A DNA stretch of 64,000 nucleotides from Acidimicrobiia bacterium (GTDB taxonomy: Bacteria; Actinomycetota; Acidimicrobiia; Spongiisociales; ZC4RG35), in the NCBI GenBank assembly GCA_041747855.1, contig JBGTEJ010000055.1, positions 3,909 to 67,908 on the forward strand, given 5' to 3'. Each line of letters opens with the position of its first letter. Positions within the stretch are counted from its first letter, which is position 1. A program made the position numbers and the translations under genes. Under the pieces are notes generated by a model. That model did no database searches, was not told where the DNA came from, and was given only the letters and a program-made list of their open reading frames with translations. This document shows positions 328 through 45,921 of the stretch, in pieces.

Positions 328-375
328 GTGGAGCTGAGGGGATTTGAACCCCTGACCCCTTGACTGCCAGTCAAG
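328..375 (-). repeat. displaced copy of the 3' part of tRNA-Ala (distal att site of the island)
   Basis: 328-375 is identical base for base to 13983-14030. 47 of the 48 nt lie in the tRNA, from the discriminator back to the 5' strand of the anticodon stem. No 5' half of a tRNA follows it. Confidence 0.9.
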
Positions 376-2224: not shown

Positions 2225-2453
2225 ACCTTACATTGACTTCTCAGATCGGGTTCTAAGACCATCGTATTCGGCGCAGACGGCGGGCGGACTTGTCGGATGC
2301 CAATTCCGTTCTGGCAACGGAGATGGATGATCTCAGGAGTCCCGCTATGGCAGGGAATTCCGGTCAGGGAGACCCTGCTGAGATCGAATAGGGTGATCAC
2401 TTCCATTTTTGACGTACGAAGAAGCGGACGTGCTGACACAATCCCATCTCAGA

Positions 2454-3329
2454 TTACGCACGAGGGTCCTCCTGATTAGCAAGGCTTCGCAGTTCCAGGC
2501 AGGCCTTGTACAAGACGCGCTCGAGTTCGAGCTCGGTGGGAATGCCGTCTCGCCGTCGGTATGCAGTCGTGGTGCCAGCGATCGGCTCGTAACAGTAAAG
2601 GCCGACCGCGTCGACGATCTGCTGGGCCGTATGCGCCCAGCGCACGGTCGCGGCGAAATCTGAGTCGCTCAGGACCCGGACGGCCAAGAACACATAGATC
2701 GTCGGAGGGTTTGCCCGCAACCATGTCGTCAGGTCGGACCCACCAGCGCCTCCACCGGCTGGCAGGTTTCCCTCAATCGTCTGTCGCCGGCTGTACTCGC
2801 CCTTAAGATCGATCGACTTGAATGCCAGTTCCTTGACTCGCTTCCCCACGTCCGCCGATCCACGTCGCCCTACTGGCTTCTGTTTTGGACTCAGCGCATG
2901 GCGGGGTGTGCCCATCATCTTCGCTTCAAGCAAGAAGCGGATCGGGCCCTCGGCCGGGTAGACACCATCCAGGTTGTGCTCAGGCACGATCAGCCCGGGA
3001 ACCTTGTTGCGTGTGTACAACCTGCCGATCTCGGAGCAATTCTCCAACAGTAAGGCAAGCAAGTCGTTGAAGAAATCCCCCTTGCCGTTCTGGATATCAG
3101 CGGAGAGCGCGGTCCGTTCGGAGTCCGTCAGAGAGGTGTCGGCTGTGGCCGCAAGATCTGTATCGAAGGCTGACATCGCGGCTAGGAAGCCCGACTCCAC
3201 TTGGTTCCAGCTAGCTGCGTTCGATGCGGCAGCAGCCGAGTAAAGCTCCCGCTGCGGCAGACAGCGCGGACTCGTGGCCACGACGTCGCTGATCTTTCGG
3301 GGCTGGCTTATCGGTTGCGCCACACTCAT
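2454..3329 (-). CDS. putative type II restriction endonuclease (PD-(D/E)xK-like)
   Basis: 291-aa ORF starting 22 nt downstream of the methyltransferase stop, same strand. NLDGVY ... LLEAKMMG fits a D...ExK nuclease core. No family recognised. Confidence 0.45.
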   Translation of the reverse strand: MSVAQPISQPRKISDVVATSPRCLPQRELYSAAAASNAASWNQVESGFLAAMSAFDTDLAATADTSLTDSERTALSADIQNGKGDFFNDLLALLLENCSEIGRLYTRNKVPGLIVPEHNLDGVYPAEGPIRFLLEAKMMGTPRHALSPKQKPVGRRGSADVGKRVKELAFKSIDLKGEYSRRQTIEGNLPAGGGAGGSDLTTWLRANPPTIYVFLAVRVLSDSDFAATVRWAHTAQQIVDAVGLYCYEPIAGTTTAYRRRDGIPTELELERVLYKACLELRSLANQEDPRA

Positions 3330-3351
3330 CCTTCGTTCGGCTCGGCACAGC

Positions 3352-5043
3352 CTAAGTCTCTAGCGACAACGCCACCAGCGACGGATCGAGGTCGAAGACA
3401 GATGAGGCTAGGTCAGTGGCAGCCTTCCGGTCACGGGTTCTAAATGCTTCGATCAACCCATGACGAGTTGGACCATTGATATCCGTGGGATCTGGAACTC
3501 TCATCCTTCGGATGTATTGCGCCTGGAAACGATAGGTTCCACCCCGCATCTTGACGCAATAGGCGCCTATCAAGGCATTCGCCACATCCGAGAGCAGGAG
3601 GCCACCGAGAACCTCGAGATCCCATTCTTCCGACACGATGAAGTACAGGTTGTGATGCGGGTAGCGATCACCTTTGTCGAGCACAGGATTGGAGCGAGCT
3701 TTGATGTCTGGCAGCACCAGCTTCTCACGCATCTGCAAGGTCGGATCGACCTTATCGATCGTGCGGTACCAAGAGTGTGGTCGTCGCCTCGCCACGTGGC
3801 GGCCCCGAAGTCTCTCCTCGTTGGCTTCGAAGTAGGCCCTCAGCCGTGGATAGTCCGCAAGGTCAACCAGGTCGTCATCCTTCCACGGGTTCACCAGGAA
3901 GTGTCCGGCCCAGTCTGCCCTTCCTCCGGCCGTGTCACGTGCAAGCAAGAGTGGTAGCAATCGATCTTCCTCGACAAGAGAGGTGTCCGAAGTGATGTAC
4001 ACCTCGTCGCAGCCAGTTGCCACACCAATTCCCACTCGGGTTGCCGTATTTCTGCTCTCGAGCAGTGGAAATCGACTTTCGAGTTCGGCGACCAGCGCCT
4101 GCCGTGCCGGGTTACCCGATGGCCACGATGCTTTGCCGGAGAACCACCTCTTGAGTCGAACACCATCGGCGGCACTGCGACTTATGGCTGGTGACTCTTC
4201 CTCGATCCAAGTACTCACGGCCTTAGCATCCACGGGACCGAATCCCGCGCGGGCGTCCACGACATTTACGCCTTCCTGGCTTCCTTGGCGGAGTACCACG
4301 ATCGCCGGGTAGGCGGACACCTCGTCCTCAAAGGCATCGACATCGTGCATGCTCACGACAGAGTCGATGGCGTAGCGTGAAGCAATAAGTTCCCGCAGCG
4401 CACCGCCGTACTGGTTATGCATCCACCGGTCGGCACAGATGAAGCCCAGTCTCCCACCGTCACCCAGCATCCGGAGGCCGACCTCGATGAACCCCACGTA
4501 GATGTCGCTGCGGCCCCGCATCGTCGGACAAGCGCGCCGGTATTCATCGGTAAGCGGGCGAGGCACATCCTCAAGTCGGATGTACGGCGGATTGCCCACG
4601 ACGAAGTCGGCACAAGCAATTGGATGAGGGTGGAGGAGAAAGTCGGCTGTCGTCACCCACCTCGAGGCGAGATTCTCCGAGAGGTCAATCGAGTAGCCCA
4701 GATCAGTAAGCTGCTGTATCACAGCCTTTCGAGCGAGCTCGACATTGGACTCCAGTAGGTCGAAGGCTCGAATGGCGCCACCAGTGGTCGCAAGATCCCT
4801 GTTGTTTCGATCACAGGCTTCAACGAGACGACTGACCATCGGATTGAGGAAGGCTCCGGTTCCGCAGGCGGGCTCGACGATGATCCGCCCACCGAGGTCC
4901 TCGTCAGGTCGATACCCGACAAGGTCCAAGATGAACTCGACCACCCAATGGCGGGTGAACACTTCACCGTAGTTGGACTGACCCAGCTCGTCGGCCGGGA
5001 GGACTACCGTCGGCAGGAGACTGAGCTGTGATGTGGCTTTCAT
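3352..5043 (-). CDS. N6-adenine DNA methyltransferase (gamma class, Eco57I/TaqI-like, with C-terminal specificity domain)
   Basis: 563 aa. SAM motif VEPACGTGAFL lies upstream of catalytic VVGNPPYIRLED. The C-terminal half (VGIGVATGCDEVYI) looks like a TaqI-type target recognition domain. Confidence 0.8.
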   Translation of the reverse strand: MKATSQLSLLPTVVLPADELGQSNYGEVFTRHWVVEFILDLVGYRPDEDLGGRIIVEPACGTGAFLNPMVSRLVEACDRNNRDLATTGGAIRAFDLLESNVELARKAVIQQLTDLGYSIDLSENLASRWVTTADFLLHPHPIACADFVVGNPPYIRLEDVPRPLTDEYRRACPTMRGRSDIYVGFIEVGLRMLGDGGRLGFICADRWMHNQYGGALRELIASRYAIDSVVSMHDVDAFEDEVSAYPAIVVLRQGSQEGVNVVDARAGFGPVDAKAVSTWIEEESPAISRSAADGVRLKRWFSGKASWPSGNPARQALVAELESRFPLLESRNTATRVGIGVATGCDEVYITSDTSLVEEDRLLPLLLARDTAGGRADWAGHFLVNPWKDDDLVDLADYPRLRAYFEANEERLRGRHVARRRPHSWYRTIDKVDPTLQMREKLVLPDIKARSNPVLDKGDRYPHHNLYFIVSEEWDLEVLGGLLLSDVANALIGAYCVKMRGGTYRFQAQYIRRMRVPDPTDINGPTRHGLIEAFRTRDRKAATDLASSVFDLDPSLVALSLET

Positions 5044-5187
5044 TGATCTGTTCCAAGTTACACGAGTGTGATCTTGGAGACGACCCTATCGCGGCACACC
5101 GACACATTCCCCGCGTAGGCGTTCGCGTTGGGCGGGATCGCAGCAATTGGGCTGAATCGGTCACAGTCGCCTGGGACAATCCCGGGC

Positions 5188-5949
5188 ATGGAACCGACTC
5201 GTTTCGCAATTGTTGGAGACATCCATGGCGAATTCCGAGCATTAGTCGAAGGTCTGGACGGCGCGCGGGAACTGTTCGGCCCCCTGGATTTCGTCCTGTC
5301 GGTGGGCGACGTGGAGGCAAACCGCACTCCCGAAGATGCCCAAGGCGTGGTCAGTCCAGAGAGGTACCGCAAGGTCGGAGACTTTCCCGAGGTGGTTTCG
5401 GGAAACCTCATACTCGGGTCGCCCTTCTACTTCATCGCCGGCAACCACAATCCGTACCCAGCCCTAGATGAACACGGACCTGGCCACTGGGTCGCAGACT
5501 GTCATTGGCTCGGCCGGTGGGGAGTAACGACCATCCACGGGATCCGGATCTCGTTCCTCTCAGGTATTCGGTCTCCGAAATACTCCGATACCTCCAAGCC
5601 CATCCGGACCGGTCCGAAGGTCAGGACCTACTGGCATCGATCTGAACTGGACGCCCTCATCAGGAAGTCATCGGAGGCTGGACCTATCGACGTGCTGCTG
5701 ACTCACGAATGGCCCGAAGGAATCGGAACGACTCGGCGTGGGCAGGAGGCCGGTCAGTCCGAAATCCGGCGGCTCGTCGAGACTGTGCGTCCGAAGGTCC
5801 ATGCCTGTGGACATATCCATCATCCGCTGCAGGCCACTATCGGGGGAACAACCGTCGTCTGCCTCGCCAAGGTGTCAAACCGCATCGGCGGCATCGCCGT
5901 GTTCGAGACGTGGAATGACGGGCTTCGGCGCCTCGACGACGCCCCTTGA
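5188..5949 (+). CDS. calcineurin-like metallophosphoesterase
   Basis: Motifs IVGDIHGE, VGDVEA, GNHNPY, THEWP and ACGHIHH in canonical order. The ORF track starts at TTG 5128; ATG 5188 (MEPTRFAIVGDIHG) is the more likely start. Confidence 0.75.
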   Translation: MEPTRFAIVGDIHGEFRALVEGLDGARELFGPLDFVLSVGDVEANRTPEDAQGVVSPERYRKVGDFPEVVSGNLILGSPFYFIAGNHNPYPALDEHGPGHWVADCHWLGRWGVTTIHGIRISFLSGIRSPKYSDTSKPIRTGPKVRTYWHRSELDALIRKSSEAGPIDVLLTHEWPEGIGTTRRGQEAGQSEIRRLVETVRPKVHACGHIHHPLQATIGGTTVVCLAKVSNRIGGIAVFETWNDGLRRLDDAP

Positions 5950-5989
5950 AGGAATGCTTCCAGCGGAATAGTCTCAGAATGTCAAGGAG

Positions 5990-6439
5990 TTAGCCCACCG
6001 CTCCGTGGCAGCGCTTGTACTTCGAGCCCGATCCACACGGGCACGGATCGTTCCGGCCGACCTTGACAACCGCAGATGCCGGCCGTGGCATGACTGGGGT
6101 GGGCTGCGTCTGAGTCACCACCCTCAGCCGTTGCTCCATGATCTCGATGTTGCGCTCCCTGGCATCGAGCATCCGTTGTCGCTTGGCGAACTCGACCTCA
6201 AGCTCGGCTAGGAACACCGGGCCATCGCCGAGGTCATCTACGACCGAGCGGAGCTCGTGCTGGATCAGGGCGGCGATCCCTCGACCCATTGAGACGCCGA
6301 GGGAGTCGCAATAGCTCTTCCACGCCGCCCACGTCGCTTCGGCTGCGGGAACTCGCACCATTTGCCAGATCTCGTCGTGGCCAAGACCGGAAAAGATCCT
6401 GCGATCGATCTTGGCGAGCGTACCGCGGTCAAAGTCCAT
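5990..6439 (-). CDS. SEC-C motif protein (C-terminal CPCGSG...C.H zinc knuckle), N-terminal part unknown
   Basis: 149 aa ending [24 protein letters not shown] start preceded by GGGGAGAGG. Confidence 0.6.
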
Positions 6440-7313: not shown

Positions 7314-7517
7314 ATGGAACACGACAATCGGCTCCTCACCGTCGAGGAACTCGCCGAGTACCTCGGTGTGCCGGTGACCACGCTCTACCAATGGCGGTAT
7401 CGAAGAGAGGGACCTCCAGGCTTCCGGGTCGGACGGCATCTCCGTTACCGGTGGAGCGACGTGCAGCGCTGGATCGAGAGTCGTCTTGAGGTTGGTCGCT
7501 CGGGTCGAGTGTCGTAG
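7314..7517 (+). CDS. xis: excisionase-family helix-turn-helix DNA-binding protein
   Basis: MEHDNRLLTVEELAEYLGVPVTTLYQWRYRREGPPGFRVGRHLRYRWSDVQRWIE matches the excisionase/MerR-type HTH pattern. It is the first gene of a plus-strand string ending in int. The ORF-track N-terminal extension (6963-) does not look coding. Confidence 0.7.
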   Translation: MEHDNRLLTVEELAEYLGVPVTTLYQWRYRREGPPGFRVGRHLRYRWSDVQRWIESRLEVGRSGRVS

Positions 7518-7574
7518 GCGTGATGTAGGGTGGCTTCCGAGAGCCACAACCCGCATCGTGGTGGAGGTCTATTG

Positions 7575-7814
7575 ATGCCAGGTCGAATATCTAGCTCCCT
7601 GCTTGAACAGCTCGTTGGTGTGAACTGTCCCGCTTGCCAATTCGGGTTCGAAGTCGAGGTGGCCGATGCAGCTTGTCAGGTCTGGCGGTGGTGCCCATGT
7701 TGCAGGTCACGGATTCGTCTTATGGAGCCCGGTGGTGAGGTACATGGAGCCATGGAAGAGGTCGAATCGGCGATGAGGGAGTTCCAGAAGAACCTCGGGA
7801 GGATGTTCAGATGA
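7575..7814 (+). CDS. small zinc-ribbon protein (CxxC ... CxCC)
   Basis: CPACQ...(20 aa)...CPCC. GGAGG lies 8 nt before ATG 7575. The stop overlaps the next start (ATGA at 7811-7814). Confidence 0.5.
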   Translation: MPGRISSSLLEQLVGVNCPACQFGFEVEVADAACQVWRWCPCCRSRIRLMEPGGEVHGAMEEVESAMREFQKNLGRMFR

Positions 7815-8770
7815 GGTTCAGGGAGGCCCTCCAGGTTCAATTACAGGAGAGATACCGGCGCCTCTACAAAAGTGAGTGGACCACATTCGAAGTCAACGTC
7901 AGATTCTTCCTGCAGTGGATTGACCGGGTCGCAGCGCTTCGATCAATCGTTGACTCACTTCGAAAGAGCCATCCCGATCTCGACCCCACGGAGTGGTGGG
8001 GTGAGGTACAAAAGCGCAGGGCCTACGAAACACCTGAGACAGAGGAAGCAAGGGCCAAGCTCGTTCTGCATGCGCTCCATGACATCGCATTCACCGAGGG
8101 AGTCGATTTCACCAAACTGGTCTGGCCTCTAACCAGAGAGAGCAATTACAACGACTCCATTCGACAATTCTGTTCGCAGTGGGTCGAACCAGTTGTCGAA
8201 TATCTACAAGAGCGGCTCGGTGCCGAGAGTGACATGCTCTACCTGCTCGAGAGGTATCGGCGCCGCCTTGCGTGGTTCGAACGGGATCGGCTCTATGAGT
8301 TGTACCAGGCGGACACCTCGAAGGGCGAGGCCGTGTACGACCGAGATCTACGCATGTTCCTCTTCGAACAAGGCGTTGACTACCCATTCTCCCAACCCGA
8401 AGGACCGTCGGGGAAGGCTGACGTTATTGCCTTGGTCGATTCGGACGACCCGCTCACCTGCGAAGTGAAGCTGTTTGACGGAGATCGATACGGAGTCTCG
8501 TACCTGGCAAAAGGGGTCGGTCAGGCCGTCCGCTACGCGGAAGACTATGGCAAAACCGCGGCTCACCTCGTCATGTTCAACCTGACCGGGCATGCTCTGC
8601 AGCTCCCGTCTGACGATCTAGACGCTGGTTGGCCCCCTCGCATTGACATTGCTGGCGTGACCGTCTTCCTCGTCGTGGTCCAGGCTGCTCCGCGGCCCTC
8701 CGCGAGCAAATCTGGCAAGGCAAAGGCGGTCGAAGTCATCCGGTCAGATCTCGTGGCCGACATCCCATGA
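7811..8770 (+). CDS. hypothetical protein with C-terminal PD-(D/E)xK-like nuclease motif
   Basis: 319 aa. GKADVIALVDSDDPLTCEVKLFDG gives a D...ExK arrangement followed by a conserved-looking QAVRYAEDYG helix. The N-terminal ~190 aa look helical and have no recognisable family. Confidence 0.45.
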   Translation: MRFREALQVQLQERYRRLYKSEWTTFEVNVRFFLQWIDRVAALRSIVDSLRKSHPDLDPTEWWGEVQKRRAYETPETEEARAKLVLHALHDIAFTEGVDFTKLVWPLTRESNYNDSIRQFCSQWVEPVVEYLQERLGAESDMLYLLERYRRRLAWFERDRLYELYQADTSKGEAVYDRDLRMFLFEQGVDYPFSQPEGPSGKADVIALVDSDDPLTCEVKLFDGDRYGVSYLAKGVGQAVRYAEDYGKTAAHLVMFNLTGHALQLPSDDLDAGWPPRIDIAGVTVFLVVVQAAPRPSASKSGKAKAVEVIRSDLVADIP

Positions 8771-8797
8771 AGACCTAGCTGGCGAAAGGAGTCGACG

Positions 8798-9925
8798 ATG
8801 GCGCATATGAGAAGGAAGGGTTCGGGTCAGTGGCAGGTTCGGTACCGGGACCCATCCGGCATTGAGCGAGCCCGAAACTTCCACCGGAAAGCGGATGCCG
8901 AGAAGTTCCTGGTGACCGTCGAGGCGGACAAAGTACGAGGGATGTGGGCGGATCCTCGCCTGGCAAAGATCACCGTTGCCGAGTGGTTGCCTACGTGGCA
9001 GGAGAGCAGGGTCCACCTTCGACCTTCGACGCGTGCGATGTCGGAGTCACTTCTGCGGAATCACGTGATCCCCTACTTCGGTGACCGGCGTCTCGGCTCG
9101 GTGACTCCAACGGTCGTCCAGGGGTTTGTTGCTCACCTCGAGGAGAAGGGTCTGGCGCCGTCGACGATCCGCCAGTCCTACCTGCTGGTCGGGGGCCTAT
9201 TCTCCTCGGCGCTCGAATCCGACCTCATCGTCCGCTCTCCCTGCCGTGGGATCAAGCTGCCGAAGAGCTCTCAGACCGAGGTGCGTTTTCTCACCACTGA
9301 AGAGGTGACCGATCTCGCAGAGGTGATCGATGACCGCTATCGAGCCCTTGTGCTGACAGCCGCGTACGCCGGCTGTCGGTTCGGAGAGCTTGCCGGTCTA
9401 AAGACACACCGTCTGGATCTGCTCAGGCGAAGTCTCACAGTCGCCGAAGCGCTCTCCGAGGTGCGTGGACAAGTTCGGCTCGCTCCTCCTAAGACCGCGG
9501 CAGCTCGGCGCCAGCTAGCGTTGCCCAAGTTCCTAACTGAAGAACTGAATCACCACTTGGCTACATGGCCACCCAGTGCGGAGGGGTTCGTGTTTACAGC
9601 ACCTCAAAGTGGCCCACTTCTTCGCCGCAACTTCCGGAGGCGCACGTGGCTACCTGCAGTGAGAGCCTCGGTTCGCGAGCCTTTGCGATTCCACGACCTG
9701 CGGCACACTCATGCAGCGATGCTGATCGCCCAAGGCGAGCACCCGAAGGTCATCCAGAATCGACTCGGACACTCTTCGATCAAGGTAACGCTGGACACCT
9801 ATGGCCACCTCTTTGAGGGGCTCGATGAGGCCGCAGCCGAGCGTCTCGATGCGACATTCCTTCGGACGCCTGCGGAAGTTGCGTTGACTGCAAACCGAGG
9901 GGAAGTTCGACAGGTTCGTCAGTAA
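8798..9925 (+). CDS. int: tyrosine recombinase / phage-type integrase
   Basis: 375 aa. AAGGAG RBS before the ATG. C-terminal RFHDLRHTHAAMLIAQG...LGHSSIKVTLDTYGHL carries the R..HxxR..Y catalytic signature, and there is an N-terminal SAM-like arm-binding region. Confidence 0.9.
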   Translation: MAHMRRKGSGQWQVRYRDPSGIERARNFHRKADAEKFLVTVEADKVRGMWADPRLAKITVAEWLPTWQESRVHLRPSTRAMSESLLRNHVIPYFGDRRLGSVTPTVVQGFVAHLEEKGLAPSTIRQSYLLVGGLFSSALESDLIVRSPCRGIKLPKSSQTEVRFLTTEEVTDLAEVIDDRYRALVLTAAYAGCRFGELAGLKTHRLDLLRRSLTVAEALSEVRGQVRLAPPKTAAARRQLALPKFLTEELNHHLATWPPSAEGFVFTAPQSGPLLRRNFRRRTWLPAVRASVREPLRFHDLRHTHAAMLIAQGEHPKVIQNRLGHSSIKVTLDTYGHLFEGLDEAAAERLDATFLRTPAEVALTANRGEVRQVRQ

Positions 9926-9980: not shown

Positions 9981-10820
9981 CTACGACGGAAAGATCTTGG
10001 CTCGCTGGATACCGAACAGGATGCCGGGACCGCCCACGTGGATGACCGTGGCCTCGCCTTGTCCCTCGATTGATATGGGCCGAAGGGCCTGGGGGTTAGT
10101 CATGAATATCAGTGCTCGATCGGTAATCACGACAGAACCTCCCCAGCCTGACCAGATGCCGGCGACACGAACAACACCGGTCCGAACGACCGCTATGTCA
10201 AAGACGGGAAGACCATCAGCCACGGCCCGAGGAGAGTGCCTCAGCAGCTGGTTGTATGCCCACAAAGGGAGGAGACGCTGCCAACCTGAAAGGTTGACAC
10301 GTAGGCGGCCGGGTCGTTGCTCATGTTCGACCTCGCCAGCGATGTAGGTCGTCGTATTGTGACGGATCTCCAGCAGCTTGTGGCCCCGCAGATCGTGGAT
10401 GTCAGCGTTGACCATCAACAATCGACCGCTCTCGTCGAGGTTAAAAGACAAGCTCTGGAGCGAATCGAAGTCGAATATCGCGAACGGCGCCTCACTGGTA
10501 GTTGAAATCGAACCGACGAGAAGCTTATTGAGTGAGGACGGGGGGACCTGGACACCGCCCCACTGCTGCGGTTCCGCAGTCTTCCACTCATACAGCGCGG
10601 TGTCGGTCAGTCTCAATTGACCACGGGTCACGGCGTCATGGCACGCCGGGCACAGAGCGATCATGTGTGCCTGGTCATGAGTCTGATAGATCGCCCATTC
10701 CCTGATGTGGTGCAGCTCGATGAGCGTATTAGGGCATGCGGGGTTCGAGCATTGGCCCGCGGCCTCATCAAGTAGCGCTGACTTAACCGAAGTCGGTACT
10801 GCTGGGCGATGCTGAGCCAT
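9981..10820 (-). CDS. HNH endonuclease-domain protein with ~190-aa uncharacterised C-terminal domain
   Basis: CSNPACPNTLIELHHIREW...HMIALCPACHDAV (Cys4 plus HH..N/H pattern) in the first 80 aa. The remainder has no recognisable motif. Confidence 0.65.
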   Translation of the reverse strand: MAQHRPAVPTSVKSALLDEAAGQCSNPACPNTLIELHHIREWAIYQTHDQAHMIALCPACHDAVTRGQLRLTDTALYEWKTAEPQQWGGVQVPPSSLNKLLVGSISTTSEAPFAIFDFDSLQSLSFNLDESGRLLMVNADIHDLRGHKLLEIRHNTTTYIAGEVEHEQRPGRLRVNLSGWQRLLPLWAYNQLLRHSPRAVADGLPVFDIAVVRTGVVRVAGIWSGWGGSVVITDRALIFMTNPQALRPISIEGQGEATVIHVGGPGILFGIQRAKIFPS

Positions 10821-10954
10821 ACGAAGGATTCTGCTCCCACCCGAGATTCATCCAGAATCCACCCGGCCTCCGCTGTCACGGACCTTGGGCTCCTACGGCA
10901 CTTCCTGGAGGGTGGCGACGGGCCCTCCGAGGAGCACTTCGACACCGGCTCTCC

Positions 10955-10982
10955 GCGGACTCCCGCGGATTTTCCTCGAACT
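10955..10982 (+). promoter_or_regulatory. three phased GCGGACT-type repeats (putative arm-type sites, module A right arm)
   Basis: GCGGACT 10955, GCGGATT 10965, TCGAACT 10976. The first repeat starts exactly 101 nt before the att core at 11056, the same distance as in module B. Confidence 0.5.
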
Positions 10983-11055
10983 CTGGTCCGAACCATAGGC
11001 TCGAAGTCCAAAAGCGAGACGGCGACACCCCAGGTAGGTGGGGGTTTTATGGGGA

Positions 11056-11100
11056 TGGAGCTGAGGGGATTCGAACACCTAACCCCTAGACTGCAAGTCA
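11056..11100 (-). repeat. diverged tRNA-Ala 3' fragment (internal att copy separating modules A and B)
   Basis: 40 of 45 nt identical to 13984-14028. One mismatch changes the anticodon position from GGC to TGC. No tRNA 5' half is present. Confidence 0.8.
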
Positions 11101-11497
11101 TTGGAGCGGTTTCGCTGCATGTTCCCGACAGCCCTGCAGTACCTGTGCTCGCCGAGTACTCTGCGGTTATAACTGTTCAGATAGACGTTGAGCTCCAGCG
11201 GGACGCCGCTCTGCGCGGAGTTGTCGGTTCTGTGGGCAAGCAAACTGGCGGCCATATCGCTGTCGCGATCCTCGACTCCGACTGGGCAACGAGCGGCCGC
11301 GGTGAATATGTGGACCCATCAGATCCGGTCGTTCGCATGGCAGCTCACCTGGCCATCAACGAGCATGACGGCGAGTATCCGTGGCCACTAGTCCAGGCAA
11401 AGGGACTACAGCACTATCGGATCGATTCATCCTTTTTCGAGATGGCAGAACGGCGGCTTGGCAGGAAGTGACTGAGTTGCACTAACCGGGGAAGTCG

Positions 11498-11746
11498 TCA
11501 GCAAGATGGTGCCACTTCTCGCCTCGTTTGGGCGTGGTAGCGCTGTAGTAGCTCAGCGTGCTTCGGCGAGATCAAAGCGGTCGACCGCATGTTTTGGAAC
11601 AACTCGTATCGTTCAGCCAACGGCAAGAACTTCTCGTATTCCGCGGCGAACTTGTTGTGCCTGAGCACGGCGAGTTCTTCGGACGAGAGCTGCGCCCTAA
11701 CGAGCCCGGTGTAGGTGTCCGGATGGGGAATCGTCGCTTCGTCCAC
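11498..11746 (-). CDS. hypothetical 82-aa ORF (weak)
   Basis: GTG start only and no recognisable motif. It may be a gene fragment. Confidence 0.25.
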   Translation of the reverse strand: MDEATIPHPDTYTGLVRAQLSSEELAVLRHNKFAAEYEKFLPLAERYELFQNMRSTALISPKHAELLQRYHAQTRREVAPSC

Positions 11747-11926
11747 CTACTTGACGATTCAGTAGGGGTTGCGGAAGTAGTGCCTCAGAAGAGGCTCCCA
11801 TTTCGGGTACTGAAGCTAGTAGATGTATGCAATCTCTCTGACCTGCTTGTGGAGCTTCTCGAGTCATCGGCAGCTAACGGGTCTTCGTTGATCGGGAGGC
11901 GCTTACCGACCCGTCCTGCCGACAAT

Positions 11927-12724
11927 TCATTCGAGGATGCGACGATGGTCGAGCTGACCGACTCGCTCTCCTTGTCGAGCCAAGTAGCGGCGTTGAGTCA
12001 CGCCCCACGCGTCTTCAATGAGGTTGCCTATCGCGAACGCCATATCTTGTTGGAATCCATCGTCTGGTACCTGGTCGAGTTCGAAGTGCCAGAGCAGATT
12101 GTCGTCAGCGCAGCCTCCTACGGAGTTGTCCCACGAACCCGGCTCAGCCCAGCCTTCAGCAACGTTGCCAAGAAATGCGCCCTTGGTTGAGACGAGACCG
12201 ATAGTCAACTGCCAAGGAGTCGGAAGGCCAACGCGGCGGTGAAGCTGGACTGTGAACTTCAGCATCGCCCAGGTGTAGGTAACGATGGAGGCAAGGGCGA
12301 AGGTCCGGACGGTTTCGCCCCGATCATCCTGGTACTCACGCGCGCCGCTACTTCCAAGACCGAGCTCGATGGCGCCAGAGCGGTGAACACCAAGGAATCT
12401 CCTCCATGCCCCATCCCTGCCGTGATCATTAACCACGACCGCGGCATGAGCTGTGGGGAATGTCTGGTAGCCAAACCTCACACCTCGACCTTCCACTTTC
12501 ATTTCCTGTTCCGCTTTGAACCAGTCCCAAAAGTCTCCATCGAACCACAAAGCATCTCGTTCTGGGTCAGCGGGGAGCAATACGGCTTGCACGGTGAGTG
12601 ATTCGAGCCGTGTTGCCAATCCAACGCCGCCGAAGTCCGATCGTCGAACGTTATCGAGACCGTGGCGGTCGAGAGTCCTACGCCAACGGGCTCGGATTAG
12701 CTCGGTGTCGGCGAGAGACGTCAT
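11927..12724 (-). CDS. hypothetical protein, 265 aa, no recognisable domain
   Basis: ATG 12722-12724 overlaps the TGA of the upstream gene (ATGA). Composition looks protein-like and Trp-rich (WFDGDFWDWF). Confidence 0.6.
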   Translation of the reverse strand: MTSLADTELIRARWRRTLDRHGLDNVRRSDFGGVGLATRLESLTVQAVLLPADPERDALWFDGDFWDWFKAEQEMKVEGRGVRFGYQTFPTAHAAVVVNDHGRDGAWRRFLGVHRSGAIELGLGSSGAREYQDDRGETVRTFALASIVTYTWAMLKFTVQLHRRVGLPTPWQLTIGLVSTKGAFLGNVAEGWAEPGSWDNSVGGCADDNLLWHFELDQVPDDGFQQDMAFAIGNLIEDAWGVTQRRYLARQGERVGQLDHRRILE

Positions 12725-13848
12725 TGCGTCATCTGGCGGCGAAGCCGTACTGTGAAGTCTTCCGCCAGTTCGTTGGTCTGTTGGAGAAGAGCGGCTCGTC
12801 TGCGGACCGGCGGGGACAGCACGACCACGGCCTGGTCGTTATTCCTAAAGCCCATCGTTGCCATGTTTGGGTTGCGCTCTTGTTCGATGCGCGTCCGCCA
12901 AGGCATGTACCCCGCGCCCCGGAGGGCGATTACAGGAGCAGCGTGGCTCAACCGCTCAGCTGAGTCGACATGGTTGAGGAGTCGAGCACAGAAGCGAAGA
13001 CCACTGGCGATTCGGTTCGAGACGTCCTCCTCGATCACAGATCTGATGCCCGACGCCCAGGTGCTCTGATCCACGGCAGGCTGAACGATCAGGAGGTTGG
13101 CAGTCTCGTCGATCGACACCAGACCCGAGCCTCGCTCCTGAGTCAATTGAATCGCGTCCCCCTTGACCGAAACCTCAGTGCCGACCGCCGACGAAAGCAC
13201 CGAATCACTGCCGGTGAGGGCCTCGGACAGAAGAAACCTTCCCAACACATCCTCATCGAGTTCGGCCGGCCGTAGTACCGAGCGCAGCGGTCCGCTTGCG
13301 ACCGCCAGTATGAGGTCAGGGCCACCAGAATGGAGCTCCGTTGGTAGCAGGCCTCGAGCCCGATCAACAAGCTCGGCATGGTCTAGGGGAGCCGCCTCGT
13401 TTGCGAGCGCAAATTCGTAGATGGCACGCATGACTTTGTCGCGTAGCTCAGATGCGTCACTGAATCCGGCAGTGAAGTGCCCACGTTCCCATCCCCTCAC
13501 TTCGCGTATGAACTCTGCCTGCTGCTCCTCGGGGTCAATGCCATCCTGTATGAACACAAGGACCGGTGTCGCATCACGAGCCTCGCGATACTCCTCGTGA
13601 GTTGCCGAGAGTCCAGATGCTTGAACTGCGCCGTACTCAGCACCAAGAATCAGCAGAAGGACGTCCGCATCGCGAACTTCAGCCAGACAGGCTTGCTGTG
13701 GGGTATTTGAAGTCGCGCTGAAGTCTTCGGCCCGAACTGGCGTGTGGCGAAGGTTGGCAACCGCAGACGCGGCGGCGTCTCGAAGGGCTTCCTGGCCACG
13801 GATGAGAGAACTTATGAACACCTGCATCGGACCCATTATCTCTCGCAC
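12721..13848 (-). CDS. DUF4062-like (TIR / nucleoside 2-deoxyribosyltransferase-like fold) N-terminal domain protein with unknown C-terminal half
   Basis: QVFISSLIRGQEALRDAA...PVRAEDF...DADVLLLILGAEYG...SATHEEYREA...PVLVFIQD follows my recollection of the DUF4062 consensus (VFISS..., acidic residue, GxxYG, S.T..EY, hydrophobic strand). The GTG at 13848 is doubtful; ATGs at 13836 or 13827 are likelier starts. Confidence 0.6.
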   Translation of the reverse strand: MREIMGPMQVFISSLIRGQEALRDAAASAVANLRHTPVRAEDFSATSNTPQQACLAEVRDADVLLLILGAEYGAVQASGLSATHEEYREARDATPVLVFIQDGIDPEEQQAEFIREVRGWERGHFTAGFSDASELRDKVMRAIYEFALANEAAPLDHAELVDRARGLLPTELHSGGPDLILAVASGPLRSVLRPAELDEDVLGRFLLSEALTGSDSVLSSAVGTEVSVKGDAIQLTQERGSGLVSIDETANLLIVQPAVDQSTWASGIRSVIEEDVSNRIASGLRFCARLLNHVDSAERLSHAAPVIALRGAGYMPWRTRIEQERNPNMATMGFRNNDQAVVVLSPPVRRRAALLQQTNELAEDFTVRLRRQMTQ

Positions 13849-13910: not shown

Positions 13911-13983
13911 CCTGGCCAAGACAGCGTCCGCGAGATCATCCGTCGGGACAGCAAACCCCCAGGTAGAAGAGGGTTTTTAGGAG

Positions 13984-14057
13984 TGGAGCTGAGGGGATTT
14001 GAACCCCTGACCCCTTGACTGCCAGTCAAGTGCTCTGCCAGGCTGAGCTACAGCCCC
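13984..14057 (-). tRNA. tRNA-Ala (anticodon GGC)
   Basis: Reverse complement is GGGGCTGTAGCTCAGCCTGGCAGAGCACTTGACTGGCAGTCAAGGGGTCAGGGGTTCAAATCCCCTCAGCTCCA. It has a 7-bp acceptor stem with G3:U70, anticodon loop CTGGCAG and a TTCAAAT T-loop. CCA is not encoded. Confidence 0.92.
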
Positions 14058-14108: not shown

Positions 14109-15071
14109 CTATTCGGACTCTGCCGATTTCCCATACCCGGTCACCAGCGCACGCCCGAGATCGGCGAGGACTCCACGCAGGTCACTCGGATCCTCGACTT
14201 CGAACGAGAAAGGCAGGCTAACCAGGTAGCGGGCAAGCCAACCCAGGTCGTCGGCCCCGATCAAGAGCCGAGTGCGCACGGGCCCGGCACCTTCCAACGA
14301 CCCTACCGACGGTGGTATCGATCGACGGACGATCTCGATAGGGGCGTCGAGCATGATCACCGCCCGAATGCTGTATGCGTTCACGGCAACACCCGTGGTC
14401 ACCATTTCGACGGGGTCGGGGGCGGGACGCCTGGTAGAACGAATGCCGGTCGCTCGGGCTCCTGACAGCCGGTCCATCCGAAAGCTTCGCCAGTCGTCCC
14501 GGTCGAGGTCGTAGCCGGCGAGGTACCAACGTCGTCCCAGATGAACCACCTGGAGCGGTTCCACGTGCCGTTCGGTCTGTCGGCCAGCGGAGTCCACGTA
14601 CCCGAACCGCAACCTGATCCGACTCCTGGCGGCACCAGAAACGACGGCCAGTTCGGCCGGGTCGATCATGACATTGCCGAAGGGCACCGTCACCGTCGAT
14701 TCGGCGATGTCGTTGAGACGGTCACGCAACTTCGGTGGCAGCACTTGTTCAAGTTTGGCCATAGCCGAGAGCGAGGAGTCCTCGATGCCAGCCACCGCCG
14801 AGGTAGCCGCAATCCTGAGCCCGACCGCGACAGCGAGCGCCTCATCGTCGTCGAGAAGAAGGGGAGGGAGCTTGCCACCCGCCCCTAACCGGTACCCGCC
14901 CCCTGGACCGGCCAGCGCCTCCACCGGGTATCCCAACGAACGCAACCGGGCGATGTCTCTCCGGATCGTCCTGGGAGTGACTCTGAGCCGATCCGACAAC
15001 TGGTCCGATGTCCAGTCGACCCTGCCCTGCAACAGGGCGAGAAGCTTGAGTAATCGTTCTGCGGTGTCCAC
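14109..15071 (-). CDS. HTH-WYL domain transcriptional regulator (YafY-like)
   Basis: N-terminal LLKLLALLQGRVDWTSDQLSDRLRVTPRTIRRDIARLRSLGYPV and a central HLGRRWYLAGYD WYL motif. Confidence 0.8.
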   Translation of the reverse strand: MDTAERLLKLLALLQGRVDWTSDQLSDRLRVTPRTIRRDIARLRSLGYPVEALAGPGGGYRLGAGGKLPPLLLDDDEALAVAVGLRIAATSAVAGIEDSSLSAMAKLEQVLPPKLRDRLNDIAESTVTVPFGNVMIDPAELAVVSGAARSRIRLRFGYVDSAGRQTERHVEPLQVVHLGRRWYLAGYDLDRDDWRSFRMDRLSGARATGIRSTRRPAPDPVEMVTTGVAVNAYSIRAVIMLDAPIEIVRRSIPPSVGSLEGAGPVRTRLLIGADDLGWLARYLVSLPFSFEVEDPSDLRGVLADLGRALVTGYGKSAESE

Positions 15072-44265: not shown

Positions 44266-44340
44266 GGGTGACCGACGGGACTTGAACCCGCGACTTCCTG
44301 GACCACAACCAGGTGCTCTACCAGGCTGAGCTACGGCCAC
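44266..44340 (-). tRNA. tRNA-His (anticodon GTG), with encoded G-1
   Basis: Reverse complement is G-GTGGCCGTAGCTCAGCCTGGTAGAGCACCTGGTTGTGGTCCAGGAAGTCGCGGGTTCAAGTCCCGTCGGTCACC. Confidence 0.9.
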
Positions 44341-44360
44341 CATGTGTGAATGGGACACCG

Positions 44361-44434
44361 GCGCCCTCGGGAGGACTCGAACCCCCAACCTACGGATTAG
44401 AAGTCCGCCGCTCTATCCACTTGAGCTACGAGGG
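44361..44434 (-). tRNA. tRNA-Arg (anticodon TCT)
   Basis: Reverse complement is GCCCTCGTAGCTCAAGTGGATAGAGCGGCGGACTTCTAATCCGTAGGTTGGGGGTTCGAGTCCTCCCGAGGGCG. The acceptor stem pairs fully. Confidence 0.9.
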
Positions 44435-44471
44435 CCGTGGTTCCGGTACCGCCCCGAGAGGCGACCCATTC

Positions 44472-44542
44472 GAGCGGGTGAAGGGAGTCGAACCCTCGCC
44501 ACCAGCTTGGAAGGCTGGAGCTCTACCGTTGAGCTACACCCG
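44472..44542 (-). tRNA. tRNA-Gly (anticodon TCC)
   Basis: Reverse complement is GCGGGTGTAGCTCAACGGTAGAGCTCCAGCCTTCCAAGCTGGTGGCGAGGGTTCGACTCCCTTCACCCGCT. Confidence 0.9.
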
Positions 44543-44571
44543 CGATTTGAACGGACATTCTAGATGACCGG

Positions 44572-44645
44572 TCGGGCTGGTCGGACTTGAACCGACGACC
44601 TCCTGCTCCCAAAGCAGGCGCGCTACCAAGCTGCGCCACAGCCCG
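44572..44645 (-). tRNA. tRNA-Pro (anticodon TGG)
   Basis: Reverse complement is CGGGCTGTGGCGCAGCTTGGTAGCGCGCCTGCTTTGGGAGCAGGAGGTCGTCGGTTCAAGTCCGACCAGCCCGA. Confidence 0.9.
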
Positions 44646-44694
44646 GATCAGGGGTAATGGTACCGCCGCCTCTGGCTTCAGCCAGATTCGTTGA

Positions 44695-45039
44695 TCACCC
44701 CAGCGCCATGAGGATGACGAATATCACCGTCGCAACAAGTGGAGGCCCCAGAAGCGCGGCCACTATCTGACCGTTCCTGGTGGCGATCAGACCACGAATG
44801 ACTAGGGCGGAAACACCGATGGCGATGATCGCCACCACCGCAAAGGCTATGTAGATGGCTGCGACCAGATCCTCCCATCCGTCGAGGTCGCGACCGGAGA
44901 AGATGCCCAATCCGGCCAGTCCGAGCACTACAACGGCCCAGACCAGCAGGATTGTCCGAGCAGTTCGATCGAGCGTCTTCTTGGGCGGTTCGGGTGGGGT
45001 TCCTTCTGTCCACGTCATGGCATCGATCCTATCGGACAT
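44695..45039 (-). CDS. small membrane protein (3 predicted TM helices), unknown function
   Basis: 114 aa with hydrophobic runs ILLVWAVVVLGLAGLGIF, AIYIAFAVVAIIAIGVSALVI and VAALLGPPLVATVIFVILMAL. Confidence 0.5.
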   Translation of the reverse strand: MSDRIDAMTWTEGTPPEPPKKTLDRTARTILLVWAVVVLGLAGLGIFSGRDLDGWEDLVAAIYIAFAVVAIIAIGVSALVIRGLIATRNGQIVAALLGPPLVATVIFVILMALG

Positions 45040-45089
45040 TGCTCCTCGGGTGCGGCGAATCTGTCACAGCCCCCACGTATCTTCCAATC

Positions 45090-45794: not shown

Positions 45795-45804
45795 AATTCG
45801 AGAG

Positions 45805-45878: not shown

Positions 45879-45921
45879 CCCTCATATCGATCTCCCTGAT
45901 GACACAATCTGTCCGGTCAAC

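What the first reader, a model, noticed from the sequence alone, without database searches (positions are those of the whole stretch)
7575..8770. Zn-ribbon + PD-(D/E)xK-like gene pair embedded inside the xis-int operon
Seen: xis (7314-7517), a 79-aa CxxC...CxCC protein (7575-7814), a 319-aa protein (7811-8770, ATGA-coupled) and int (8798-9925) are co-directional with gaps of 57, -4 and 27 nt. The 319-aa protein ends in GKADVIAL...CEVKLF, a D...ExK nuclease-like core, after a ~190-aa helical region of unknown family. Inference: placing cargo between xis and int is unusual and implies co-expression with excision. The pair could be a defence or exclusion module switched on when the island is induced, or an accessory recombination or replication nuclease. 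I recognise neither protein as a described family.
Basis: partly seen in the sequence, partly recalled or inferred. Interest (0 to 1): 0.65.

Follow-up and report, generated by a model that had tools for sequence, protein, structure and literature searches.

The report
Zinc-ribbon plus nuclease-like defence-candidate cassette
The two genes are a self-contained, widely spread but uncharacterised gene pair, most likely a nuclease-based defence cassette, that was recently dropped into the gap between the excision and integration genes of a small genomic island and is not a part of the island's recombination machinery.

Summary

The pair is a conserved two-gene cassette:
- The zinc-ribbon gene lies directly upstream of the large gene in 54 of 69 species-level loci from several phyla.
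- The two genes usually overlap by 4 or 1 nt, and they co-diverge (Mantel r 0.87).
- No other neighbour is conserved. A tyrosine recombinase lies within 6 kb in only 6 of 69 loci.
- Neighbours are often defence genes, and in at least six loci the pair sits inside type I restriction-modification operons.

The only library matches are partial hits to PADLOC's untested candidate PDC-M14.

Three sibling islands with a near-identical integrase are 88-89% identical in DNA on both sides but have xis abutting int. The cassette is therefore a ~1.25-kb window-specific insertion.

E173, D204, E218-x-K220 and Q238-xxx-Y242 are invariant across 105 homologues. However, two AlphaFold models leave the D204 segment unmodelled, and Foldseek, PDB profiles and hhalign give no significant nuclease match.

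Verdict: a plausible, untested defence (or addiction) cassette, and a new variant of a candidate kind. Interest is moderate.

The parts
7575..7814 (+). Gene for the 79-aa zinc-ribbon partner. It has a four-Cys ribbon (C18, C21, C40, C43) followed by a C-terminal amphipathic helix.
   Evidence: ORF, with GGAGG at 7563-7567. Homologous gene directly upstream of the large gene in 54 of 69 loci. Four Cys invariant in 50 of 50. Sub-threshold generic Zn-ribbon Pfam hits in up to 29 of 41 members. Distant members hit PDC-M14A. The C-terminal helix weakly matches designed coiled coils.
7811..8770 (+). Gene for the 319-aa protein: an N-terminal all-helical domain (residues 1-186) and a C-terminal alpha/beta domain carrying nuclease-like motifs.
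   Evidence: ORF, with GGGAGG at 7797-7802 and an ATGA overlap with the upstream gene. 192 and 466 homologues found in two searches. 1080 clusters at 50% identity. AlphaFold2 pLDDT 85.5 and 89.5. PDC-M14B hit on residues 16-136 only.
8327..8536 (+). Codons of the invariant putative catalytic residues: E173 (8327-8329), D204 (8420-8422), E218 (8462-8464), K220 (8468-8470), Q238 (8522-8524), Y242 (8534-8536).
   Evidence: Invariant in 105 sequences down to 24% identity. Codon positions read. Order and spacing match RecB/HsdR-type PD-(D/E)xK motifs (established knowledge; by-eye comparison with HsdR sequences).
7514..8785 (+). The inserted cassette as a whole, about 1.24-1.27 kb, lying in the xis-int spacer.
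   Evidence: blastn: window 6252-7489/7513 and 8786-9849 are 87-89% identical to L081, L082 and L083, which have only 63-85 nt between these blocks. Junction alignments. No direct or inverted repeats of 7 nt or more at the borders.
7314..7517 (+). xis (excisionase-type HTH), the upstream flank of the insertion.
   Evidence: HTH_17 E 6e-16 and TIGR01764 E 4e-10. 71% identical at protein level (tblastx) to the L077 xis.
8798..9925 (+). Tyrosine integrase, the downstream flank of the insertion. It keeps its own AAGGAG ribosome-binding site.
   Evidence: Phage_integrase E 2e-18 and phrog_1 E 5e-70. Its cluster holds 10 members at >=90% identity. Right junction alignment.
328..375 (.). Distal att repeat: an exact 48-nt copy of the 3' half of tRNA-Ala(GGC).
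   Evidence: the repeat finder family D1, alignment, and no tRNA gene there.
11044..11102 (.). Degenerate internal copy of the tRNA-Ala 3' half (76% identical). It is probably the relic att site on the integrase side of the 10.7-kb island.
   Evidence: It is 84% identical to the region overlapping the real tRNA-Ala next to the sibling island in L082.
13983..14057 (-). tRNA-Ala(GGC), the integration target of the island.
   Evidence: ARAGORN. Its 3' 48 nt are repeated at 328-375.

Best explanation
The two genes are an autonomous, horizontally mobile two-gene cassette. It is most likely a nuclease-based anti-phage or anti-mobile-element defence module, distantly related to the untested PADLOC candidate PDC-M14.

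Proposed mechanism (inferred, not shown):
- The genes are translationally coupled, so the two proteins are made together and form a complex.
- The 319-aa protein is the effector. Its C-terminal domain would be a Mg2+-dependent PD-(D/E)xK-type nuclease using E173, D204, E218, K220, Q238 and Y242. Its N-terminal helical domain, with a 55-residue helix, would serve assembly or sensing.
- The 79-aa zinc-ribbon protein, docked through its C-terminal helix, would either restrain the nuclease or supply the nucleic-acid or trigger contact.
- Infection, or loss of the partner, would release nuclease activity against invading or host DNA.

In this window the cassette is cargo. It was inserted, as a ~1.25-kb block, into the xis-int spacer of a ~10.7-kb defence-laden island integrated at tRNA-Ala. 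There it is probably co-transcribed with xis and int, but that placement is incidental.

Shown here: pair conservation, coupling, the insertion event, invariant motif residues and the defence neighbourhoods. Inferred: complex formation, nuclease activity, the trigger and the defence phenotype.
For: - Pair conservation: the Zn-ribbon gene is directly upstream in 50 of 69 loci by phmmer and 54 of 69 by profile.
- Coupling: start/stop spacing is -4 in 17 loci, -1 in 9 and 0 to 9 nt in 18, out of 53 loci.
- Co-divergence: Mantel r 0.87, with 0 of 999 permutations as high.
- Neighbours: no other conserved neighbour.
- Spread: Actinomycetota, Chloroflexota, Myxococcota, Bacteroidota, Cyanobacteria and a Nitrososphaera MAG; 1080 clusters at 50% identity.
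- Defence context: type I RM, MADS and Gabija/OLD-like genes among the two nearest neighbours on either side. Embedding within type I RM operons in L054, L058, L065, L001, L042 and L045/L046. Next to SMODS, ThsB-TIR, CHAT and XhoI-RM genes. The window island itself carries AIPR, an RM methylase, HNH and AbiC-like genes.
- PDC-M14 relation: PDC-M14B hits at E 1e-8; PDC-M14A hits for distant partners.
- Motifs: invariant E173, D204, E218, K220, Q238 and Y242; sub-threshold hits to five PD-(D/E)xK-clan Pfam families among 105 members.
- Not phage-borne: absent from 50,697 phage genomes and rare on plasmids.
- Insertion shown by sibling islands.
Against: - There is no experimental evidence for defence by this family, nor by PDC-M14 itself. 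The 145 PDCs are stated to be untested.
- The nuclease fold is not confirmed. Both AlphaFold2 models give pLDDT below 50 for residues 195/198-211, which include D204.
- Foldseek against PDB and BFVD finds nothing with E below 0.1.
- PDB sequence profiles find nothing.
- hhalign against the HsdR nuclease domain gives probability below 5%.
- Pfam, NCBIfam and PHROG give no significant hit.
- The PDC-M14B match covers only the N-terminal half, and the window's own Zn protein has no PADLOC hit.
- 15 of 69 loci lack a recognisable Zn-ribbon gene.
- The defence-neighbourhood evidence is descriptive and was not tested against a background rate.
Confidence: 0.55

Rival explanations
1. Toxin-antitoxin-like addiction module. 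The small zinc-ribbon protein is a labile antidote to the nuclease toxin, and the cassette mainly stabilises the elements that carry it (post-segregational killing after island loss) rather than fighting phages.
For: The architecture is like a type II TA pair: a small upstream gene overlaps a larger downstream gene by 4 nt. The pair is co-inherited strictly. It lies on integrative islands, ICE-like elements and a few plasmids. Here it is inserted in the excision/integration operon, where a stabilising function would make sense.
Against: The small protein has no recognisable antitoxin DNA-binding fold, and the large one matches no known toxin family. 15 of 69 loci have the large gene without a recognisable partner, which is hard to reconcile with an indispensable antidote. 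Embedding inside type I RM operons and defence islands is more typical of defence genes. Many TA systems are themselves abortive-infection defences, so this rival overlaps the best explanation.
Confidence: 0.2
2. Solitary, constitutively active restriction-type endonuclease (for example modification-dependent, Type IV-like). The helical N-terminal domain gives target recognition, and the zinc-ribbon protein is merely an assembly or DNA-clamping subunit. There is no trigger and no abortive infection.
For: D/ExK/QxxxY-type invariant residues. One UniRef record names a homologue 'Restriction endonuclease' (P0204). The pair is frequently adjacent to RM and MADS methylation-based systems. It is absent from phages.
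Against: No match to any Type II or Type IV REase model in PADLOC, Pfam or NCBIfam. No recognisable modified-base reader domain such as SRA, YTH or winged helix; the N-terminal domain is purely helical with no structural neighbour. The source name is automatic and unsupported.
Confidence: 0.1
3. Accessory factor of the island's own life cycle, such as a recombination directionality, replication-initiation or end-processing nuclease working with Xis and Int.
For: In this window the genes lie between xis and int with no intervening terminator-like site. In L077 and L005 the cassette is next to an integrase.
Against: Sibling islands with >=90%-identical integrase and 88-89% identical flanking DNA lack the cassette entirely, so it is dispensable for that integrase. 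Only 6 of 69 loci have a tyrosine recombinase within 6 kb. Many loci are inside RM operons with no mobile-element genes.
Confidence: 0.03
4. The large protein is not a nuclease at all. The conserved acidic, lysine and Q...Y residues serve another role (ligand or nucleotide binding, or protein-protein contacts), and the pair is a regulator or sensor of unknown type.
For: No significant structural or profile match to any nuclease. The segment carrying D204 is not modelled as a strand. Further invariant residues with no role in the PD-(D/E)xK template exist: R181, P275, A298 and S299.
Against: The order, spacing and predicted secondary-structure placement (helix, D-segment, ExK strand, Q...Y helix, hydrophobic strand) fit the PD-(D/E)xK template closely. 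5 of the 46 weak Pfam hits fall in that clan. PD-(D/E)xK families are notoriously hard to detect by sequence (established knowledge).
Confidence: 0.12

Closest known systems
PADLOC phage defence candidate PDC-M14 (cassette CAS_00078, FAM_02625>>FAM_00494; Payne et al., bioRxiv 10.1101/2024.01.29.577857)
   Same: It is a two-gene cassette with the small gene first. The N-terminal helical half of the large protein matches PDC-M14B models (E 1e-8 for the window; E 3e-7 to 2e-5 for distant homologues). Zn-ribbon partners of distant homologues match PDC-M14A (E 7e-6 and 2e-4). The family is also found embedded in type I RM operons, which is how PDCs were discovered.
   Different: Matches cover only profile positions ~4-150 of 261-275 for B and 17-92 of 152 for A. 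The C-terminal nuclease-like domain is not covered. The window's Zn protein has no PADLOC hit. PDC-M14 itself is untested and has no described mechanism. The same small-gene family is listed with a second partner family (CAS_00300, FAM_02625>>FAM_00644, 14 instances). That could be this family, but I could not check it.
PrrC anticodon nuclease embedded in the type Ic RM locus prr (analogy of context only)
   Same: It is a latent nuclease gene nested co-directionally inside a type I RM operon between hsd genes, as seen for this pair in L054, L058 and L065. PrrC is cited as the archetype of RM-embedded defence.
   Different: There is no sequence relationship. PrrC is an ABC-ATPase/HEPN-type RNase, and no PADLOC PrrC hit was obtained. 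Most members of the present family, including the window copy, are not inside type I RM operons.
Shedu (SduA, DUF4263): single-protein defence with a variable N-terminal domain and a C-terminal PD-(D/E)xK nuclease
   Same: The overall logic matches: an N-terminal regulatory or sensor domain followed by a C-terminal D...ExK nuclease-like domain. The description of Shedu is from my own knowledge.
   Different: No Pfam DUF4263 or PADLOC Shedu hit. Shedu is a single gene without a Zn-ribbon partner.
HsdR / RecB / Cas4-type PD-(D/E)xK nuclease domains with a QxxxY motif
   Same: The motif string has the same order and similar spacing. The acidic residue lies on the preceding helix. D and E are 14 residues apart, as in the HsdR sequences. 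The string runs ExK and then Q-x-x-x-Y, 18 residues after K here and 15 in those HsdRs.
   Different: There is no statistically significant similarity: hhalign probability below 5%, no Pfam hit above threshold and no Foldseek hit. There is no helicase or Fe-S module.
Lar (restriction alleviation) and other small stand-alone zinc-ribbon proteins
   Same: It is a small (~75 aa) four-Cys zinc ribbon. 25 of 41 family members give sub-threshold Lar_restr_allev hits (best E 5e-4).
   Different: Equally good sub-threshold hits occur to many unrelated Zn-ribbon families (DUF7836, Elf1, LysW and others), so the match reflects the generic ribbon only. There is no evidence for restriction alleviation.

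Membership tests
PADLOC candidate system PDC-M14 | Two adjacent co-directional genes, a small A gene followed by B | tested here: met
   Window 7575-7814 then 7811-8770. The same arrangement occurs in 54 of 69 loci.
PADLOC candidate system PDC-M14 | The large protein matches a PDC-M14B model over most of its length | tested here: not met
   The best hit, PDLC04449 (E 1.1e-8), covers protein residues 16-136 and profile positions 20-137 of 267. Coverage is equally partial in seven of eight distant homologues tested.
PADLOC candidate system PDC-M14 | The small protein matches the PDC-M14A model | tested here: not met
   The window protein has no PADLOC hit at E<=1. Homologous partners in L022 and L036 hit PDC-M14A weakly and partially (E 7e-6 and 2e-4, profile 17-92 of 152).
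PADLOC candidate system PDC-M14 | Recurrent embedding inside type I RM, BREX or DISARM operons | tested here: met
   Met for the family: hsdM-hsdS-Zn-nuc-hsdR in L054, L058 and L065, with related layouts in L001, L042 and L045/L046. The window copy itself is not embedded in such an operon.
PADLOC candidate system PDC-M14 | Anti-phage activity | not testable with these tools
   The PDCs are described as untested. No paper text mentions PDC-M14.
PD-(D/E)xK nuclease superfamily (RecB/HsdR-like, with QxxxY) | Conserved D ... (D/E)xK catalytic motif in canonical order and spacing, plus Q-x-x-x-Y | tested here: met
   E173, D204, E218, K220, Q238 and Y242 are invariant in 105 sequences of 24-84% identity. 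The D-to-E spacing of 14 equals that in the HsdR sequences.
PD-(D/E)xK nuclease superfamily (RecB/HsdR-like, with QxxxY) | alpha-beta-beta-beta-alpha-beta core fold | tested here: inconclusive
   The models give helix 169-186, an unmodelled segment 198-211 (pLDDT below 50, contains D204), strand 217-222 (ExK), helix 229-245 (Q...Y) and strand 250-257. Foldseek finds no nuclease with E below 0.1 in PDB or BFVD.
PD-(D/E)xK nuclease superfamily (RecB/HsdR-like, with QxxxY) | Significant profile similarity to a family of the clan | tested here: not met
   Only sub-threshold Pfam hits: PDDEXK_3 in 4 members (best E 0.022), and PDDEXK_9, Vsr, Hjc and HSDR_N in one each. PDB profiles found nothing. 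hhalign against HsdR_N gave probability below 5%.
PD-(D/E)xK nuclease superfamily (RecB/HsdR-like, with QxxxY) | Metal-dependent nuclease activity | not testable with these tools
   This needs biochemistry.
Zinc-ribbon proteins | Two CxxC knuckles, about 18 residues apart, on beta hairpins | tested here: met
   C18-x2-C21 and C40-x2-C43 are invariant in 50 of 50 and 41 of 41. Consistent sub-threshold hits to many Zn-ribbon Pfam families. No structure was predicted for this protein.
Type II toxin-antitoxin systems | Small antitoxin gene overlapping a toxin gene, with membership of known toxin and antitoxin families | tested here: inconclusive
   The architecture is met. There is no match to any known toxin or antitoxin family in Pfam, NCBIfam or PADLOC. 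Toxicity is not testable here.
Recombination directionality or integrase accessory factors | Consistent co-occurrence with a site-specific recombinase | tested here: not met
   A tyrosine recombinase lies within 6 kb in 6 of 69 loci. Sibling islands with the same integrase lack the pair.
Shedu (DUF4263) | Match to DUF4263 or the SduA models | tested here: not met
   No such hit in Pfam or PADLOC at E<=1.

The most novel reading that the evidence does not exclude
The cassette is a distinct, undescribed defence or addiction system with a partner-gated nuclease. The most conserved segment of the protein (S-G-x-x-D204-h-h-h), which AlphaFold cannot place in the monomer, would complete the active-site sheet only when the zinc-ribbon subunit or a trigger binds. 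In this island, its insertion between xis and int would additionally make nuclease production conditional on induction of excision. That would couple island mobilisation to killing of invaders or of cells that lose the island.
Probability: 0.12. Interest if true: 0.65.

Novelty: new variant of a known kind. Interest (0 to 1): 0.42.

Why it matters
If it is active, this would add a compact (~1.2 kb), widely distributed nuclease-based immune cassette to the prokaryotic defence catalogue. It spans Actinomycetota to Bacteroidota, Cyanobacteria and an archaeal MAG. It would also give the first functional handle on the PDC-M14 group of computational candidates.

The window supplies a clean natural experiment. 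Near-identical islands exist with and without the cassette, and with the cassette on either side of int. These define the cassette's exact borders and show that defence cargo can be slotted into the recombination operon of an integrative island without a transposase or flanking repeats. That bears on how defence genes shuffle between mobile elements.

Tried and rejected
1. Whole-protein family searches (Pfam, NCBIfam, PHROGs) gave nothing significant.
2. Foldseek of two confident AlphaFold2 models against PDB (twice) and BFVD gave no hit with E below 0.1. The top hits (YqgP N-terminal domain, ribosomal uS11, YfcK N-terminal domain) are noise.
3. Deepening the alignment from 30 to 105 sequences raised pLDDT to 89.5 but did not resolve residues 198-211.
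4. PDB sequence-profile searches with the full-length and C-terminal-domain profiles gave nothing.
5. hhalign of the C-terminal domain against HsdR N-terminal nuclease-domain profiles gave probability below 5% and aligned only the first helix. One profile came from 5 locus sequences and one from 60 homologues. That HsdR subfamily has a ~100-residue insertion and low diversity, so the test is weak.
6. I looked for Zn-ribbon/nuclease fusions among the longer family members and found none.
7. I looked for repeats at the cassette borders that could explain its mobility and found none of 7 nt or more.
8. Recombination or replication accessory role: rejected on co-occurrence and the sibling islands.
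9. Phage origin: rejected, with 0 of 50,697 phage genomes and 1 IMG/VR contig.
10. Literature searches for PDC-M14 or an equivalent named system found only the PADLOC candidate list.
11. I could not establish the organism of the window. Its proteins are singletons or unnamed in the collection.
Full report
**Observation.**
- xis, 7314-7517: HTH_17 E 6e-16 and TIGR01764 excisionase domain E 4e-10.
- A 79-aa ORF, 7575-7814.
- A 319-aa ORF, 7811-8770.
- A tyrosine integrase, 8798-9925: Phage_integrase E 2e-18 and phrog_1 E 5e-70.

The gaps are 57, -4 (ATGA) and 27 nt. GGAGG (7563-7567) and GGGAGG (7797-7802) precede the two middle genes. No terminator-like site on the + strand lies between xis and int, so co-transcription is plausible in this window. 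The CxxC...CxCC and GKADVIAL...CEVKLF strings are present as described.

**The pair is a conserved unit.** The large protein has hundreds of homologues, all unnamed or 'hypothetical'. An exhaustive profile search finds 1080 clusters at 50% identity, 333 of them below E 1e-30.

In one genome per species, 69 loci were recovered. They come from Actinomycetota, Chloroflexota, Myxococcota, Bacteroidota, Cyanobacteria, Pseudomonadales and a Nitrososphaera MAG.
- A homologue of the 79-aa gene lies immediately upstream in 50 loci by single-sequence search and 54 by profile.
- The four cysteines C18, C21, C40 and C43 are invariant.
- The stop/start spacing is -4 in 17 loci, -1 in 9 and 0 to 9 nt in 18 more.
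- Pairwise identities of the two proteins are tightly correlated (Mantel r 0.87, 0 of 999 permutations).
- All-against-all clustering of neighbouring ORFs shows no other conserved neighbour.
- Fifteen loci lack a recognisable Zn-ribbon gene. Some lie at contig ends. In others (Nostoc, Polyangiaceae) different genes lie upstream.

**Context elsewhere.**
- Among the two nearest genes on each side, PADLOC models hit type I RM subunits (methylase in 7 loci), MADS components (4-5 loci) and Gabija/OLD-type ATPases (5 loci).
- In L054, L058 and L065 the pair sits between hsdS and hsdR of a co-directional type I operon. L001, L042 and L045/L046 have related layouts.
- Other copies lie next to a SMODS cyclase (Streptomyces), a ThsB-TIR gene with a PLD-helicase, CHAT and transposases, or in an integrative element with xis, int and a TrwC relaxase.
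- The family is absent from 50,697 phage genomes. It is present in one IMG/VR contig and in 5 of 72,556 plasmids, where RefSeq annotates both genes as hypothetical.
- A tyrosine recombinase is found within 6 kb in only 6 of 69 loci.

This pattern suits a self-contained defence-type cassette and does not suit a recombination accessory. It is descriptive, because I did not test it against a background rate.

**What the window's element is.** A 48-nt exact copy of the 3' half of tRNA-Ala(GGC) (gene at 13983-14057) lies at 328-375. A degenerate copy (76%) lies at 11044-11102. The region is therefore an integrated island of about 13.6 kb, probably made of two parts.
- A 10.7-kb island, 376 to about 11044. 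It carries an AIPR protein, a type II methylase with a likely partner, a metallophosphoesterase, a SEC-C protein, xis, the pair, int and an HNH protein.
- An older 2.9-kb remnant with AbiC-like and DUF4062 genes.

**The insertion.** The integrase belongs to a cluster of ten sequences at >=90% identity. Three sibling contigs carrying such integrases (L081, L082 and L083) are 87-89% identical in DNA to window 6252-7489/7513 and to window 8786-9849. They have only 63-85 nt between these blocks, where the window has about 1.27 kb.

Junction alignments place the left border just after the xis stop region. They place the right border at the integrase's own AAGGAG ribosome-binding site. In L082 the island is followed by a genuine tRNA-Ala(GGC), which matches the window's relic copy.

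A more distant syntenic island (L077) carries AIPR, an RM methylase, SEC-C, xis and int at 43-71% protein identity. It has the same cassette (84% protein identity, 76% DNA identity), but downstream of int. Homology between the two cassettes is confined to the coding region, and there are no repeats of 7 nt or more at the borders.

The position between xis and int is therefore real but recent and lineage-specific. It says how cargo moves, not what the cargo does.

**What the proteins look like.** AlphaFold2 models are confident with both alignments: 30 sequences gave pLDDT 85.5 and 105 sequences gave pLDDT 89.5 (pTM 0.77).
- Residues 2-186 are all-helical, with one 55-residue helix (113-167).
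- The C-terminal third is alpha/beta.

Across 105 sequences down to 24% identity, the invariant residues include E173, D204, E218, K220, Q238 and Y242. These map to the helix before the sheet, the unmodelled segment, strand 217-222 and helix 229-245. That is the order and spacing of the acidic/D/ExK/QxxxY motifs of RecB-, Cas4- and HsdR-type PD-(D/E)xK nucleases. The comparison rests on established knowledge and on the HsdR sequences aligned.

The statistical support is weak.
- Both models give pLDDT below 50 for residues 195/198-211, the most conserved stretch.
- Foldseek finds nothing below E 0.1.
- PDB profiles find nothing.
- hhalign against HsdR nuclease-domain profiles gives probability below 5%.
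- Pfam gives only sub-threshold hits, although five of the 46 families hit belong to the PD-(D/E)xK clan.

I rate the nuclease assignment as likely (about 0.7) but unproven.

The small protein is a generic four-Cys zinc ribbon followed by an amphipathic, coiled-coil-like helix.

**Relation to known systems.** The only library signal is PADLOC.
- The window's large protein hits three PDC-M14B models (best E 1e-8), but only over residues 16-136.
- Seven of eight distant homologues tested behave the same way. Two of three distant Zn-ribbon partners hit PDC-M14A weakly.

PDC-M14 is one of 145 untested 'phage defence candidates' derived from genes embedded in BREX, DISARM or type I RM loci. It is cassette FAM_02625>>FAM_00494, with 247 instances. 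The same small-gene family also occurs with another partner family below the authors' cutoff. No paper text mentions PDC-M14.

The window's cassette is thus a relative of that candidate. It shares the N-terminal domain and the zinc ribbon but not the full-length profile, so it is not a demonstrable member. No match was found to Shedu, Hachiman, restriction enzymes, toxins or antitoxins.

**Mechanism and verdict.** The best-supported reading (confidence 0.55) is a two-subunit latent nuclease serving defence or exclusion. Translational coupling would produce a zinc-ribbon/nuclease complex. The helical domain and the small subunit would control or target a PD-(D/E)xK-type active site. A trigger would release cleavage.
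- Shown here: the conservation of the pair, the coupling, the invariant residues, the defence contexts and the insertion event.
- Inferred: complex formation, catalysis, the trigger and the phenotype.

A toxin-antitoxin or addiction role (0.2) overlaps with this reading and cannot be separated computationally. A constitutive restriction-type enzyme (0.1) and a non-nuclease function (0.12) remain possible. A role in the island's own recombination is essentially excluded (0.03).

The finding is a sound candidate for experimental testing but not a surprise to specialists. It is a new variant of a candidate kind, with interest about 0.4.

Noticed in passing
window 328-375, 11044-11102, 13983-14057: Three copies of the 3' half of tRNA-Ala(GGC): an exact 48-nt repeat at 328-375, a 76% copy at 11044-11102, and the gene itself. 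They delimit a ~13.6-kb island that looks like a tandem accretion of a 10.7-kb island and a 2.9-kb integrase-less remnant.
   Followed up: partly
window 521-6439 and 9981-13848: The island cargo is almost entirely defence-like. It includes an AIPR protein (521-2224, -), a type II methylase (3352-5043, -; PADLOC MTase_II E 2e-186) with an unassigned 291-aa ORF downstream (2454-3329, -), and a metallophosphoesterase hitting PDC-S10 (5128-5949). It also includes an HNH protein (9981-10820, -), an AbiC-like ORF (11498-11746, -), and a DUF4062 protein (12721-13848, -) overlapping a 265-aa ORF (11927-12724, -).
   Followed up: partly
window 5990-6439 (-); L077, L081, L082, L083: A SEC-C-motif protein (PADLOC PDC-S12, E 9e-9), divergently oriented upstream of xis, is conserved in all four sibling or related islands. 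It therefore looks like backbone of this island family (possibly a regulator) rather than variable cargo.
   Followed up: no
window 8402-8443 (residues 198-211 of the 319-aa protein): The most conserved segment of the protein (P-S-G-x-A-D-V/I-h-h) is the only part that AlphaFold2 cannot place. Its pLDDT is about 36 with both a 30- and a 105-sequence alignment. This is unexplained. It could reflect a partner- or oligomer-dependent conformation.
   Followed up: partly
window 8633-8635 and 8702-8707 (P275, A298-S299): Further invariant residues lie outside the nuclease template: a W-P-P-R motif and an S-A-S-K motif near the C-terminus, both of unknown role.
   Followed up: no
window 7314-7517: The xis protein gives a sub-threshold match to MAD1, the HTH component of the methylation-associated defence system MADS (NF047737, 45 bits against a cutoff of 80). 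MADS genes (mad2, mad3, mad5, mad8) are neighbours of the cassette in 4-5 other loci.
   Followed up: no
L047, L048, L053 (Nostoc): In these cyanobacterial loci the large gene has no zinc-ribbon gene upstream. It is preceded, 115 nt away and co-directionally, by a 962-aa UvrA-like ABC ATPase.
   Followed up: partly
L070/L071 (Euzebya-like contigs) 11016-11684; window 9981-10820: An HNH endonuclease gene directly follows the cassette in the Euzebya-type element, and an unrelated HNH gene lies just beyond int in the window. This could be coincidence or a recurrent association.
   Followed up: no
L082 9166-12681 (-) versus window 9981-10820 (-): Sibling islands differ in the cargo between int and the tRNA-side att site: an 1171-aa ORF with no Pfam hit in L082 and an HNH protein in the window. 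This is a second variable cargo slot in the island family.
   Followed up: no
window 14109-15071 (-): A WYL-domain transcription regulator (HTH_11 + WYL + WCX) lies immediately outside the island, next to tRNA-Ala.
   Followed up: no
window 44266-46006 and 61013-61364: There is a cluster of six tRNA genes (His, Arg, Gly, Pro on the - strand; Lys, Leu on the + strand) and a tmRNA gene with tag peptide AEDNFALAA. Housekeeping proteins of the window are singletons in the 15-billion-protein collection, so the organism is poorly sampled.
   Followed up: no
L079 (IMGVR_UViG_2881735349_000001, 8001-8924): This is the single homologue in IMG/VR. It lies near the end of a 34-kb contig classed as viral. 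I did not examine whether it is a prophage or a misclassified island.
   Followed up: no
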